Below are positions 35,096 to 37,264 of a stretch of 64,000 bases of DNA, piece by piece. The translations under genes and the position numbers were made by a program. Origin of the DNA: Escherichia coli (GTDB taxonomy: Bacteria; Pseudomonadota; Gammaproteobacteria; Enterobacterales; Enterobacteriaceae); NCBI RefSeq assembly GCF_003334305.1, contig NZ_QOWS01000006.1, one strand, 5' to 3'. The notes under the pieces were generated by a model. That model ran no database searches. It was given only the letters and a program-made list of their open reading frames with translations, and was not told where the DNA came from. Positions within the stretch are counted from its first letter, which is position 1, and each line of letters opens with the position of its first letter.

Positions 35096-35200
35096 GGGTT
35101 GATACCTCCTTTGTTAACACCCGTAAAAAAAGGGCGCAACATAATAGCTAACATTGACCGCGGATGCACGGTCAATATTTCTACAAAAAGGTATCAGGGA

Positions 35201-35548
35201 TTATTTGACGTAGGCAAGCAGGCTTAAGGAATCGCGGGCCAGGGCTTTGCATTTTTTAGCGACGGGAATGCCAATGCCGCTGAGATCGCGGTAGCTGTCT
35301 TCACCGAGGGCTTTCATGTCGAAGGTGTCGTAATTACTGAGATCCCACTGGTTTTGCTGGGCGAAAAAGACCAGTGCGCGACGAATTTGCCCGTTAGGTA
35401 AGTTCTGGTAACCACAATCGTTCTTCAGAAAGACAAAAACTGCCGTTAAATCGGCCATATCTTCGGCTTCAGACTCGCTGAGTGCGTAACTGTTTGCGCA
35501 AACGGCCATCAGGCTGCCGAATAACACTGTTCTGAAAAACGTCTTCAT
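35201..35548 (-). CDS. yacC: periplasmic PulS/OutS-like (pilotin family) protein YacC
   Basis: ORF-track extended; native start MKTFFRTVLFGSLMAVCANSYA (signal peptide) gives 115 aa; family assignment from memory. Confidence 0.8.
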   Translation of the reverse strand: MKTFFRTVLFGSLMAVCANSYALSESEAEDMADLTAVFVFLKNDCGYQNLPNGQIRRALVFFAQQNQWDLSNYDTFDMKALGEDSYRDLSGIGIPVAKKCKALARDSLSLLAYVK

Positions 35549-35641
35549 TGCTTCTACCAGGGGCTTAAAGAAGATAAACGTTAGCACACTGCGAGCGAGG
35601 CGACGACCATTATTGTCGATTAAATTGTGTCTGCGGCTTGA

Positions 35642-35660
35642 CCTTCCCGTAAGGGGAAGG
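35642..35660 (+). promoter_or_regulatory. CueR (MerR-family) operator in cueO promoter
   Basis: Perfect dyad CCTTCCC-gtaag-GGGAAGG sitting between a TTGACC -35-like hexamer (35638..35643) and TATGCT -10-like hexamer, with a long MerR-type spacer; about 55 nt upstream of the cueO ATG. Confidence 0.8.
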
Positions 35661-35713: not shown

Positions 35714-37264
35714 ATGCAACGTCGTGATTTCTTAAAATATTCCGTCGCGCTGGGTGTGGCTTCAGCCTTGCCGCTGTGGAGCCGCGCAGTCTTTGCGGCG
35801 GAACGCCCAACGTTACCGATCCCTGATTTGCTCACGACCGATGCCCGTAATCGCATTCAGTTAACTATTGGCGCAGGTCAGTCTACCTTTGGCGAGAAAA
35901 CTGCAACTACCTGGGGCTATAACGGCAATCTGCTGGGGCCGGCGGTGAAATTACAGCGCGGCAAAGCGGTAACGGTTGATATCTATAACCAACTGACGGA
36001 AGAGACGACGTTGCACTGGCACGGGCTGGAAGTACCGGGTGAAGTCGACGGCGGCCCGCAGGGAATTATTCTGCCAGGTGGCAAGCGCTCGGTGACGTTG
36101 AACGTTGATCAACCTGCCGCTACTTGCTGGTTCCATCCACATCAACATGGCAAGACCGGGCGACAGGTGGCGATGGGGTTGGCTGGGCTGGTGGTAATTG
36201 AAGATGACGAGATCCTGAAATTAATGCTGCCAAAACAGTGGGGTATCGATGATGTTCCGGTGATTGTTCAGGATAAAAAATTTAACGCTGATGGGCAGAT
36301 TGATTATCAACTGGATGTGATGACCGCCGCCGTGGGCTGGTTTGGCGATACGCTGCTGACCAACGGTGCAATCTACCCACAACACGCTGCCCCGCGTGGT
36401 TGGCTGCGCCTGCGTTTGCTCAATGGCTGTAATGCCCGCTCGCTCAATTTCGCCACCAGCGACAATCGCCCGCTGTATGTGATTGCCAGCGACGGTGGTC
36501 TGCTACCTGAACCGGTGAAGGTGAGCGAGCTGCCGGTGCTGATGGGCGAGCGTTTTGAAGTGCTGGTGGAGGTTAACGACAACAAACCCTTTGACCTGGT
36601 GACGCTACCGGTCAGCCAGATGGGGATGGCGATTGCGCCGTTTGACAAGCCGCATCCGGTAATGCGGATTCAGCCGATTGCTATTAGTGCCTCCGGTGCT
36701 TTGCCAGACACATTAAGTAGCCTGCCTGCGTTACCTTCGCTGGAAGGGCTGACGGTACGCAAGCTGCAACTTTCTATGGACCCGATGCTCGATATGATGG
36801 GTATGCAGATGCTAATGGAGAAATATGGCGATCAGGCGATGGCTGGAATGGATCACAGCCAGATGATGGGCCATATGGGGCACGGTAATATGAATCATAT
36901 GAACCACGGCGGGAAGTTCGATTTCCACCATGCCAATAAAATCAACGGTCAGGCGTTTGATATGAATAAGCCGATGTTTGCGGCGGCGAAAGGGCAGTAC
37001 GAACGTTGGGTTATCTCTGGCGTGGGCGACATGATGCTGCATCCGTTCCATATTCACGGCACCCAGTTCCGTATCTTGTCAGAAAATGGCAAACCGCCAG
37101 CGGCTCATCGCGCGGGCTGGAAAGATACCGTTAAGGTAGAAGGCAATGTCAGTGAAGTGCTGGTGAAGTTTAATCACGACGCACCGAAAGAACATGCTTA
37201 TATGGCGCACTGCCATCTGCTGGAGCATGAAGATACGGGGATGATGTTAGGGTTTACGGTATAA
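35714..37264 (+). CDS. cueO: multicopper oxidase CueO (cuprous oxidase), Tat-secreted
   Basis: ORF-track extended; native start [28 protein letters not shown] (twin-arginine signal) gives 516 aa; Met-rich insert [46 protein letters not shown]; copper ligands [13 protein letters not shown]. Confidence 0.96.

What the first reader, a model, noticed from the sequence alone, without database searches (positions are those of the whole stretch)
35201..35548. yacC: orphan pilotin-like periplasmic protein next to speE
This is a small signal-peptide protein of the PulS/OutS (secretin pilotin) family with no secretin in the window. It could be a remnant of, or a trans-acting factor for, a type II secretion or type IV pilus system encoded elsewhere (compare hofBC-ppdD in this window).
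Basis: inference. Interest (0 to 1): 0.3.

Follow-up and report, generated by a model that had tools for sequence, protein, structure and literature searches.

The report
yacC: known soluble pilotin-like paralogue
This is the well-known E. coli core gene yacC, a small periplasmic protein that shares ancestry and fold with the lipoproteins that pilot type II secretion pores to the outer membrane but lacks their lipid anchor and pore-binding residues, so it is an ordinary, already-annotated gene whose real partner is still unknown.

Summary
The ORF is real: window 35201-35548 (-) encodes the 115-aa E. coli YacC, between speE and cueO. Homology to PulS/OutS pilotins is confirmed. Pfam PF09691 matches at E=3e-9. 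An AlphaFold model (mature domain pLDDT >90) has exactly the four solved T2SS pilotins as its top four PDB matches. This is not new: NCBI names it 'YacC family pilotin-like protein' (NF037975, 197 bits), and Dunstan et al. 2013 showed YacC is dispensable for GspD-beta assembly in EPEC.

It fails the defining pilotin features:
- 0 of 125 YacC-clade proteins have a lipobox; a signal-peptidase-I site is conserved instead.
- The anchor-to-domain linker is absent.
- Seven pilotin-invariant residues, including secretin contacts, are replaced, six by clade-conserved residues.
- It scores below the GspS equivalog cut-off.

It is not a remnant. dN/dS is 0.05, it is present in 5426/5426 E. coli genomes (gspD-alpha in 3133), and it coexists with genuine pulS in Klebsiella. 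No secretin lies near it in the window or in 86 related loci. HofQ and GspD-alpha lack the pilotin-docking helix.

Best reading: a soluble, neofunctionalised periplasmic paralogue with an unknown ligand. Already known; low interest.

The parts
35201..35548 (-). yacC coding sequence (115 codons plus TAA stop)
   Evidence: ORF and translation; NF037975, 196.8 bits, covers 1-115/115; PGAP annotates 'yacC: YacC family pilotin-like protein' at this spot in 5426/5426 genomes; dN/dS 0.051.
35483..35548 (-). Sec-type signal peptide, residues 1-22 (MKTFFRTVLFGSLMAVCANSYA), with an S-Y-A|L signal peptidase I site and no lipobox
   Evidence: S-Y-A before L23 in 117/125 clade members; Cys17 is Ser in 101/125; 0/125 have [LVI][ASTVI][GAS]C. 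Read from sequence and conservation; no dedicated signal-peptide predictor was available.
35204..35482 (-). Mature domain, residues 23-115: predicted four-helix PulS/OutS fold (helices 25-44, 52-65, 78-90, 96-114)
   Evidence: AF2, pLDDT >90 over the domain; Foldseek top 4 = OutS 3utk, PulS 6hcg_P and 4a56, GspS 3sol; prob 1.00; TM 0.71-0.78; next hit prob 0.08; PF09691, residues 24-105.
35414..35416 (-). Codon of Cys45, which aligns with OutS Cys61 (disulfide partner 1)
   Evidence: invariant in 125/125 clade members. The OutS C61-C115 disulfide is described in PMC3276575.
35249..35251 (-). Codon of Cys100, which aligns with OutS Cys115 (disulfide partner 2)
   Evidence: conserved in 123/125 clade members.
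35578..35606 (-). Candidate yacC promoter: -35-like TCGTCG (35606-35601), 17-nt spacer, TG-n-TAACGT extended -10 (hexamer 35583-35578), 29 nt before the ATG. Inferred, not mapped.
   Evidence: Conserved block in a 13-genus alignment of the cueO-yacC intergenic region; coordinates. The simple consensus scan did not flag it.
35549..35558 (-). Conserved leader GGTAGAAGCA immediately upstream of the ATG (probable ribosome-binding region)
35642..35660 (.). Context, not part of yacC: CueR operator palindrome CCTTCC-N7-GGAAGG within the divergent cueO promoter. It shares the 165-bp intergenic region with yacC.
   Evidence: Sequence; conserved across genera; 'yacC-yacK divergon' with a CueR site in PMC1526738.

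Best explanation
The feature is yacC, a core Enterobacterales gene for a small Sec-exported protein. It is a paralogue of the T2SS pilotin lipoproteins PulS/OutS/EtpO (GspS) but is no longer a pilotin.

Shown:
- It keeps the disulfide-stapled four-helix pilotin fold.
- Its signal peptide ends in a conserved signal-peptidase-I site and has no lipobox.
- It lacks the 12-21-residue tether that follows the lipid anchor in real pilotins.
- Residues on the concave face that grip the secretin S-domain helix in OutS are replaced by a different set that is itself conserved: D30, D33, I92, K99, L103, L110. Helix 1 becomes strongly acidic.

Inferred: mature YacC is a soluble periplasmic protein that cannot travel the Lol pathway, so it cannot ferry anything to the outer membrane. 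It most likely uses the remodelled concave face to bind a short helical or disordered segment of some other envelope protein, acting as a small chaperone or adaptor. That partner is not a T2SS secretin tail. It is expressed from its own promoter, back-to-back with cueO, independently of any secretion-system locus.
For: Identity and reality:
-.

Homology and fold:
- Pfam PF09691 E=3e-9.
- OutS and PulS are the best PDB sequence hits.
- The AF2 model has the four solved pilotins as its only confident structural matches.
- AFDB50 shows only YacC-family proteins, then GspS-family proteins, all from Enterobacterales.

Not a lipoprotein:
- 0/125 clade members have a lipobox, E. coli Cys17 is Ser in 101/125, and SYA|L is conserved in 117/125.
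- By contrast, 10/10 true pilotins have a lipobox plus a 12-21-aa linker.

Remodelled binding face:
- Pilotin-invariant Q46, S49, R63, S97, D107, F118 and F125 become D30, D33, Y47, G82, I92, L103 and L110. Helix-1 charge is -5 versus +1 to +2.

Separate family:
- TIGR01004 (GspS) scores 38.5 bits against a cut-off of 75, while NF037975 scores 196.8.

Independence from secretins:
- yacC is in 5426/5426 E. coli genomes; gspD-alpha is in 3133/5426.
- There is no secretin or PulS within +/-8 kb in 80 Enterobacteriaceae loci, nor in 6 divergent contexts.
- YacC coexists with genuine pulS in K. pneumoniae.
- HofQ has no S-domain, and GspD-alpha lacks the amphipathic docking helix.

Experiments in the literature:
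- A yacC deletion and YacC co-expression have no effect on GspD-beta assembly, outer-membrane targeting or SslE secretion (PMC3542185).
- GspD-alpha stays on the inner membrane in E. coli cells, which carry yacC (PMC10329019; yacC in all 5426 complete genomes).

Functional constraint:
- dN/dS is 0.026 for the mature domain.
Against: - No partner is identified. The 'binds another envelope client' step is inference from fold and surface conservation only.
- A K. pneumoniae Tn5 insertion in the yacC orthologue (KPN_00130) abolished outer-membrane PulA, like a pulC mutant (PMC4505419). Taken at face value, this argues for a T2SS role with Klebsiella-type secretins.
- Several shared concave-face residues are retained (L34, A36, L41, L89), so some helix-binding capacity like that of pilotins is not excluded.
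- Solubility and non-lipidation were read from sequence and conservation, not measured. Several databases still call it a 'putative lipoprotein'.
- The AF2 chimera docking test had low power: the positive-control tail reached only pLDDT 55-66.
Confidence: 0.6

Rival explanations
1. YacC is a soluble, trans-acting accessory factor for Klebsiella-type T2SS secretins (PulD; GspD-alpha in E. coli). For example, it could be a periplasmic holdase that protects the secretin tail before hand-off to the lipidated pilotin or to GspAB.
For: - The K. pneumoniae yacC::Tn5 mutant lacks outer-membrane PulA and phenocopies pulC and pulA in NF-kB assays.
- Dunstan et al. tested only the Vibrio-type GspD-beta.
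- The K-12 gsp locus has no gspS of its own.
- YacC retains the pilotin fold and part of the hydrophobic groove.
- In Klebsiella, yacC lies only about 19 kb from the pul cluster.
Against: - The Tn5 mutant was not complemented. In K. pneumoniae the insertion lies upstream of two same-strand genes, a lipoprotein and a periplasmic FKBP-type chaperone-like protein, and of speED, so polarity is plausible.
- yacC is universal in E. coli, whereas gspD-alpha is present in 58% of genomes.
- EPEC has yacC but reportedly no second T2SS secretin.
- The secretin-contact residues that are invariant in pilotins are replaced.
- The GspD-alpha tail lacks the docking helix.
- GspD-alpha is not delivered to the outer membrane in E. 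coli cells, which carry yacC.
- In the AF2 chimera only one of two PulD tails gained any confidence (weak evidence).
Confidence: 0.13
2. YacC works with its invariant divergent neighbour CueO, or more generally in periplasmic copper or envelope-stress physiology. The pilotin ancestry would then be irrelevant to its present role.
For: - cueO is divergent and 100-200 bp upstream in 79/80 Enterobacteriaceae loci, and present in 80/80. It is also there in members at 38% and 51% identity.
- The shared intergenic region carries the CueR operator.
- The two most divergent members sit next to rcsF, which encodes an envelope-stress sensor lipoprotein.
- YacC protein levels change with gentamicin and with antibiofilm drugs.
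Against: - cueO is absent next to yacC in two lineages that keep yacC-speED, and in the rcsF-linked ones.
- Synteny within one bacterial order is weak evidence.
- yacC has its own conserved promoter block, distinct from the CueR site.
- The only conserved cysteines are the structural disulfide pair, and I saw no obvious metal-binding motif in the sequence.
- None of the papers I read reports yacC in the CueR regulon.
Confidence: 0.1
3. YacC is a decaying or functionless remnant of a pilotin, left behind after loss of a T2SS.
For: - It is an orphan with no adjacent secretion genes.
- The hrpB|mrcB junction, which holds the pul cluster in Klebsiella, is empty in this window.
- No phenotype was seen in EPEC secretion assays.
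Against: - dN/dS is 0.05 overall and 0.026 for the mature part, similar to speD, gcd and yacL.
- The gene is intact in 5426/5426 E. coli genomes and in 319 species.
- The protein is detected in proteomes.
- It coexists with intact pulS and pulD in Klebsiella.
- The replaced surface residues are themselves conserved in the clade.
- Mild Tn-seq fitness effects are reported in Salmonella.
Confidence: 0.03
4. YacC is the pilotin or assembly factor for the Hof/Ppd type IV pilus and DNA-uptake secretin HofQ, as the reader suggested from hofBC-ppdD being in the window.
For: - hofC-hofB-ppdD are in the same 64-kb window, at about 13.4-16.4 kb.
- HofQ is the only secretin that, like yacC, belongs to the E. 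coli core genome (my own knowledge; not tested here).
Against: - 19 kb of unrelated housekeeping genes separate them.
- hofQ is at a distant locus with hofMNOP.
- HofQ ends 3 residues after the secretin core, so it has no S-domain for a PulS-type protein to bind.
- YacC is not lipidated.
- Known type IV pilus pilotins (PilF/PilW/Tgl) are TPR lipoproteins of an unrelated fold (my own knowledge).
Confidence: 0.03

Closest known systems
YacC family pilotin-like protein (NCBIfam NF037975; E. coli b0122, UniProt-style name 'Uncharacterized protein YacC')
   Same: This is that protein. It gives a full-length match of 196.8 bits against a cut-off of 80. RefSeq annotates it identically at this locus in all complete E. 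coli genomes. It has the same cueO-yacC-speE synteny.
   Different: Nothing differs. The window copy is 100% identical to many deposited genomes.
PulS / OutS / EtpO (GspS) T2SS pilotin lipoproteins (Pfam PF09691, TIGR01004; PDB 4A56, 6HCG, 3UTK, 4K0U, 3SOL)
   Same: - Common ancestry: Pfam E=3e-9; 19-26% identity in alignment A1, 21-28% in the structural alignments.
- The same four-helix fold, with the helix1-helix4 disulfide (C45-C100 aligns with OutS C61-C115).
- Shared scaffold and groove residues: L34, A36, L41, L89.
- Both clades are restricted to Enterobacterales.
   Different: - No lipobox or lipid anchor, and no tether.
- Score below the GspS equivalog cut-off.
- Seven pilotin-invariant residues are replaced. 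Among them are secretin contacts Q46, S49, F118 and F125, the D107 helix cap, and the mutation-sensitive R63 and S97.
- Acidic helix 1.
- Never encoded in or beside a T2SS cluster.
- Not required for secretin assembly where tested.
AspS / GspS-beta (YghG), the pilotin of Vibrio-type T2SS secretins
   Same: It is the protein that actually performs the pilotin job for the T2SS-beta of pathogenic E. coli, the role once suspected for YacC.
   Different: AspS has an unrelated fold and sequence, is a lipoprotein, and is encoded inside the gsp-beta operon (PMC3542185). YacC has none of these properties.

Membership tests
PulS/OutS (GspS) T2SS pilotin lipoproteins | Significant sequence match to the PulS_OutS domain (Pfam PF09691) | tested here: met
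   i-E 3e-9, 37.4 bits, residues 24-105 against model positions 23-103 of 110. OutS E~3e-5, PulS E 0.0066 by phmmer.
PulS/OutS (GspS) T2SS pilotin lipoproteins | Score above the curated equivalog cut-off of TIGR01004 (functional GspS) | tested here: not met
   38.5 bits against a cut-off of 75.
PulS/OutS (GspS) T2SS pilotin lipoproteins | Four-helix nested fold with a bent helix 4, stapled by a helix1-helix4 disulfide | tested here: met
   Predicted, not solved. TM 0.71-0.78 and rmsd 2.4-3.2 A to 3utk, 6hcg_P, 4a56 and 3sol, with no other confident hit. C45 and C100 are conserved in 125/125 and 123/125 members.
PulS/OutS (GspS) T2SS pilotin lipoproteins | N-terminal lipobox with a lipidated Cys (needed for Lol-dependent transport to the outer membrane; OutS Cys21 is essential) | tested here: not met
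   0/125 YacC-clade proteins have a lipobox, Cys17 is Ser in 101/125, and the SPase I site SYA|L is conserved; 10/10 true pilotins have a lipobox.
PulS/OutS (GspS) T2SS pilotin lipoproteins | Flexible tether of about 12-21 residues between the lipid anchor and the helical domain | tested here: not met
   pilotins have a 12-21 aa tether. In YacC helix 1 starts 2-3 residues after the predicted cleavage site.
PulS/OutS (GspS) T2SS pilotin lipoproteins | Conserved residues that contact the secretin S-domain helix or are mutation-sensitive (OutS Q46, S49, A53, R63, S97, L100, D107, Q114, F118, M122, F125) | tested here: not met
   Q46>D, S49>D, R63>Y, S97>G, L100>S, D107>I, Q114>K, F118>L, M122>S, F125>L. 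Most replacements are invariant or nearly so within the YacC clade. Only L50, A52, L57 and L104 are retained.
PulS/OutS (GspS) T2SS pilotin lipoproteins | Encoded within or beside a T2SS cluster, or co-distributed with a Klebsiella-type secretin that carries a docking helix | tested here: not met
   none in the window; 0/86 contexts; 5426 versus 3133 genomes; HofQ and GspD-alpha lack the docking helix.
PulS/OutS (GspS) T2SS pilotin lipoproteins | Required for outer-membrane targeting or multimerisation of a cognate secretin | not testable with these tools
   Literature only. Negative for GspD-beta in EPEC and BL21 (PMC3542185). An uncomplemented positive hint for PulA localisation in K. pneumoniae (PMC4505419).
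YacC family pilotin-like protein (NF037975) | Full-length HMM match above the curated cut-off | tested here: met
   196.8 bits against 80, covering 1-115 of 115.
YacC family pilotin-like protein (NF037975) | Clade signature: SPase I signal peptide, mature N-terminus L-[ST]-E-x-EAED, C45/C100, and I92 and K99 invariant in the 14-sequence YacC clade of A1 | tested here: met
YacC family pilotin-like protein (NF037975) | Conserved chromosomal position: divergent from cueO and upstream of speED | tested here: met
   (window); cueO in 80/80 loci and speE in 67/80; speED linkage is kept down to 38% identity.

The most novel reading that the evidence does not exclude
YacC is a lipid-free, neofunctionalised descendant of a secretin pilotin. 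On this reading it has become a dedicated soluble periplasmic chaperone or adaptor for a non-secretin envelope client, or a soluble co-factor that only Klebsiella-type T2SSs need. That would be an example of a secretion-system assembly factor being recruited into core envelope physiology across Enterobacterales.
Probability: 0.3. Interest if true: 0.4.

Novelty: already known. Interest (0 to 1): 0.14.

Why it matters
It matters little beyond tidying annotation. The gene, its PulS/OutS ancestry and its orphan status are already recorded in Pfam, NCBIfam and RefSeq and in Dunstan et al. 2013, who also showed experimentally that it is not the pilotin of the EPEC T2SS.

This re-examination adds three modest points:
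- The 'putative or chaperone lipoprotein' label that persists in several databases and papers is contradicted by family-wide absence of a lipobox.
- The secretin-gripping surface has been systematically replaced, and the replacement is itself conserved. Together with strong purifying selection, this argues for a new but unknown binding function rather than decay.
- The only published evidence for a T2SS role, a Klebsiella Tn5 mutant, may be explained by polarity on previously unremarked neighbouring genes.

YacC remains a small, highly conserved y-ome protein. Finding its partner would be a tractable but niche question.

Tried and rejected
1. Longer ORF (172 aa from TTG 35719, or the 128-aa version many gene callers report). 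Rejected: the upstream stretch is not conserved across genera, and the family model is 115 aa.

2. E. coli Cys17 as a lipidation site ('MAVC'). Rejected: Val at -1 is non-canonical, and the Cys is Ser in 101/125 relatives.

3. Weak hits of YacC to giant repeat proteins (P0129, P0155, P0157, P0162). I inspected them; they are summed repeat or low-complexity artefacts.

4. AF2 'two-tail' chimera (PulS-linker-PulD tail-linker-YacC-linker-PulD tail), meant to ask whether YacC can accept the pilotin ligand. Both domains folded. Only one tail helix rose above pLDDT 50 (55-66); the other stayed at 36-39. No coordinates were available, and the positive control was only modest, so I count this as inconclusive.

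5. Literature search for the speED promoter. It was useless because 'speED' matches 'speed'.

6. First attempt at the genome scan, with the full 13-sequence clade alignment. It failed because the alignment had no conserved stretch. It was repeated with 8 closer sequences, so the 80 loci returned are all Enterobacteriaceae at 89% identity or more. More distant contexts come from six individual look-ups.

7. The 136-aa lipoprotein next to Klebsiella yacC as a hidden PulS/YacC paralogue. hhalign probability is 3%, and there is no significant Pfam, NCBIfam or PADLOC match. Rejected at this sensitivity.

8. Consensus promoter and terminator scan around yacC. It found no sigma-70 hit and no minus-strand terminator. 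The promoter proposal therefore rests on conservation only.

9. Cianciotto & White 2017, which I wanted for the statement that Salmonella lacks a T2SS, is not held in the library. That statement therefore remains my own knowledge and is untested here.
Full report
**1. Observation**

Window 35201-35548 (minus strand) holds an ATG-initiated ORF of 115 codons plus TAA: MKTFFRTVLFGSLMAVCANSYALSESEAED...LLAYVK. The mechanical ORF list extends it to a TTG at 35719. Nucleotide conservation across 13 genera begins only at 'GGTAGAAGCA-ATG', and the NCBIfam family model spans exactly 115 positions.

The flanking genes are speE-speD (downstream, same strand) and cueO (divergent, upstream). The whole 64-kb window is collinear with, and 99.97-99.98% identical to, E. 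coli strain H15. That record's annotation runs murC-ddlB-ftsQAZ-lpxC-secMA...guaC-hofC-hofB(gspE)-ppdD-nadC...acnB-yacL-speD-speE-yacC-cueO-gcd...yad fimbrial operon...hrpB-mrcB. No secretin is present; htrE is a chaperone-usher usher, not a secretin.

**2. Is it a real gene?**

Yes.
- The 3.1-kb region is in 5426 of 5426 complete E. coli genomes, and PGAP calls the gene 'yacC: YacC family pilotin-like protein'.
- 319 species-representative genomes encode a relative.
- Relatives across Enterobacteriaceae are 85-99% identical.
- Against K. pneumoniae, Nei-Gojobori dN/dS is 0.051 for the whole gene and 0.026 for the mature part. The neighbours give speD 0.016, yacL 0.040, gcd 0.053 and cueO 0.075. 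dS is near saturation, so these ratios are approximate.
- The protein has been quantified in E. coli proteomes (PMC5604497; PMC7580552).

**3. Is it PulS/OutS-like?**

Yes, by homology and by fold.
- Pfam PF09691 (T2SS_PulS_OutS) matches residues 24-105 with E=3e-9.
- phmmer against PDB sequences finds OutS (E~3e-5) and PulS (E 0.0066).
- An AlphaFold2 model built on a 24-sequence alignment has pLDDT >90 over the mature domain, with four helices at 25-44, 52-65, 78-90 and 96-114.
- Foldseek against the PDB returns the four solved T2SS pilotins as its top four hits: OutS 3utk, PulS 6hcg_P and 4a56, and EHEC GspS 3sol. All have probability 1.00, target-normalised TM 0.71-0.78 and rmsd 2.4-3.2 A. 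The next hit has probability 0.08.
- AFDB50 shows only YacC-family proteins and then GspS-family proteins, all from Enterobacterales.

**4. Is it a pilotin?**

The defining features fail.

(a) Lipid anchor. True pilotins carry canonical lipoboxes (OutS LAAC, PulS LSGC, EtpO ISGC; 10 of 10 in my set), followed by a 12-21-residue tether. In 125 near-full-length YacC-clade proteins none has a lipobox. The E. coli Cys17 is Ser in 101. A signal-peptidase-I site, S-Y-A|L, is conserved in 117, directly before the conserved mature N-terminus L-[ST]-E-x-EAED.

(b) Curated threshold. The GspS equivalog model TIGR01004 scores 38.5 bits against a cut-off of 75. The separate YacC model NF037975 scores 196.8 bits against 80.

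(c) Secretin-binding surface. Gu et al. 2012 (PMC3276575) list the OutS residues that contact the OutD S-domain helix or are needed for targeting. In a joint alignment of 14 YacC-clade proteins and 10 pilotins:
- The scaffold is shared: C61/C115 align with C45/C100, L50 with L34, A52 with A36, L57 with L41, and L104 with L89.
- The pilotin-invariant Q46, S49, R63, S97, D107 (helix cap), F118 and F125 become D30, D33, Y47, G82, I92, L103 and L110.
- L100, Q114 and M122 become S85, K99 and S107.
- Most replacements are themselves invariant or nearly so within the YacC clade, and helix 1 changes from net +1 or +2 to -5.

This is the pattern of a re-purposed surface, not a decaying one.

(d) Context and distribution.
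- gspD-alpha, the only Klebsiella-type secretin on the E. coli chromosome, is in 3133 of 5426 genomes, against 5426 for yacC. Its locus has no gspS.
- In 80 Enterobacteriaceae loci there is no secretin or PulS homologue within +/-8 kb. cueO is present in 80 of 80, divergent and 100-200 bp away in 79. speE is downstream on the same strand in 67 of 80.
- Six more divergent members (27-63% identity) are likewise free of T2SS genes. Four keep yacC-speE-speD, and two sit between a GATase gene and rcsF.
- K. pneumoniae has both a genuine pulS, in the pul cluster between mrcB and hrpB, and yacC about 19 kb away. The two are therefore coexisting paralogues.

(e) Candidate partners elsewhere in E. coli.
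- HofQ ends 3 residues after the secretin core and has no S-domain.
- The GspD-alpha tail aligns with PulD only up to the point where PulD's amphipathic pilotin-binding helix begins (TQAFRQVSAAIDAF, hydrophobic moment 0.55). The best 14-residue window in GspD-alpha reaches 0.21 and contains a proline.

**5. Experimental literature**

Dunstan et al. 2013 (PMC3542185) found YacC with a PulS-OutS HMM in EPEC and placed it as a distinct group related to the pilotins. They showed three things:
- A yacC deletion does not affect SslE secretion.
- It does not affect GspD(beta) multimerisation kinetics or outer-membrane localisation.
- Co-expressing YacC does not help GspD targeting.

They concluded that YacC either pilots an unrelated secretin or does something fundamentally different.

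Yu et al. 2023 (PMC10329019) found that K-12 GspD-alpha remains on the inner membrane in E. coli cells. All complete E. coli genomes carry yacC. Their model uses GspAB and peptidoglycan pore size, not a pilotin.

The one contrary hint is Tomas et al. 2015 (PMC4505419). A K. pneumoniae Tn5 insertion in the 'C-terminal of ECs0126' (KPN_00130, the yacC orthologue) lacked outer-membrane PulA and behaved like pulC and pulA mutants. That mutant was not complemented.

I found that K. pneumoniae carries two extra same-strand genes between yacC and speE. One is a 136-aa canonical lipoprotein of unknown family. The other is a 619-aa signal-peptide protein with a long coiled coil and an FkpA-like FKBP_N/FKBP_C module. 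A polar effect on these genes is therefore a plausible alternative explanation of the phenotype.

Salmonella carries yacC (STM0167; 95% identical in subsp. arizonae) and shows mild Tn-seq effects. From my own knowledge, Salmonella enterica is generally described as lacking a T2SS; I could not verify that here.

**6. Docking test (inconclusive)**

I used the second structure job for a built-in-control chimera: PulS - linker - PulD tail - linker - K. pneumoniae YacC - linker - PulD tail.
- Both domains folded: PulS block pLDDT 82-92, YacC 83-89.
- One tail helix (residues 152-165) rose to block means of 66 and 55.
- The second copy (362-375) stayed at 39 and 36.

This fits one binding site rather than two. 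But the control signal is modest and no coordinates were available, so I give it little weight.

**7. Regulation (inferred)**

The 165-bp cueO-yacC intergenic region contains the CueR operator and cueO promoter (35642-35660). It also contains a separately conserved block on the yacC strand: TCGTCG, 17 nt, then TG-n-TAACGT (35606-35578), 29 nt upstream of the ATG. I read this as yacC's own extended -10 promoter. The simple consensus scan did not flag it.

The yacC-speE spacer carries a conserved inverted repeat and promoter-like block next to speE. Some genera have variable insertions between the yacC stop and that block. This suggests that speED has its own promoter and that yacC is monocistronic.

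**8. Mechanism and verdict**

Most likely (about 0.6): YacC is a Sec-exported, signal-peptidase-I-processed, soluble periplasmic protein with a disulfide-stapled pilotin fold. Its concave face has been rebuilt to bind a different, still unknown envelope ligand. Without a lipid anchor it cannot act as a Lol-borne pilot.
- Shown: homology, fold, absence of a lipobox, surface replacement, purifying selection, and independence from secretins.
- Inferred: solubility and the ligand-binding role.

Rivals:
- A soluble accessory factor for Klebsiella-type T2SS: about 0.13.
- A role linked to CueO or envelope stress: about 0.1.
- A functionless remnant: about 0.03.
- A HofQ/type IV pilus pilotin: about 0.03.

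Novelty is 'already known' and interest is low.

Noticed in passing
window 63059-63253: The 195-bp hrpB|mrcB intergenic gap contains GC-rich imperfect palindromes (CTCCCTGTGGGAGAGGGCCGGGGTGAGGGC ... CCCTCAAGGGAGAGGGG). In K. pneumoniae the same junction holds the entire ~17-kb pul T2SS cluster, including pulS and pulD. The E. coli window therefore carries the 'empty site' of that island, about 28 kb from yacC.
   Followed up: partly
L091:8596-10862 (K. pneumoniae ATCC 13883); also L012:27814-29061: There is a Klebsiella-specific 2.65-kb insertion between yacC and speE. It carries a 136-aa canonical lipoprotein (LVAGC|S, two further Cys, no family match) and a 619-aa Sec-exported protein with a coiled coil and an FkpA-like FKBP domain. 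Only 1 of 67 Enterobacteriaceae loci with speE has this insertion. In strain 176 the large gene is broken and an ISKpn18 follows. The insertion could explain the published yacC::Tn5 phenotype through polarity.
   Followed up: partly
window 35154-35175 (minus strand), in the yacC-speE spacer: A conserved inverted repeat, TTGACCG-N8-CGGTCAA, is followed by the conserved sequence TGTTAGCTAT(T/G)ATG and a strong Shine-Dalgarno before speE. This is probably the speED promoter/operator region. The 129-nt stretch spanning the spacer folds strongly (-41.5 kcal/mol). Some genera have 60-130-nt insertions between the yacC stop and this block.
   Followed up: partly
L005:9137-10028 and L006:1627-2573: The two most divergent YacC-like proteins (27% and 35% identity) both lie between a class-I glutamine amidotransferase gene and rcsF, the outer-membrane lipoprotein stress sensor. 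They are not next to cueO or speED.
   Followed up: no
L017, L018, L021, L030-L032, L034, L035, L040, L085: In about 10 species, mostly Citrobacter (e.g. C. braakii, C. werkmanii, C. youngae), no speE is found within 4.8-8 kb downstream of yacC, although cueO is retained. speED is either lost or displaced there.
   Followed up: no
L083: An assembly labelled Chryseobacterium sp. 18061 carries a typical Enterobacteriaceae cueO-yacC locus at 90% identity. It is probably a mislabelled or contaminated assembly.
   Followed up: no
window 35549-35587 (N-terminal extension called by other pipelines): Many metagenome and genome gene callers report YacC as 128 aa or longer, with a non-conserved N-terminal extension. 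Several databases and papers label it a 'putative or chaperone lipoprotein'. Both look like annotation artefacts.
   Followed up: yes
window 13367-16394: hofC (13367-14569), hofB (annotated gspE by PGAP; 14559-15944) and ppdD (15954-16394) are all on the minus strand and intact. Their secretin hofQ lies at a distant locus with hofMNOP and has no S-domain.
   Followed up: partly
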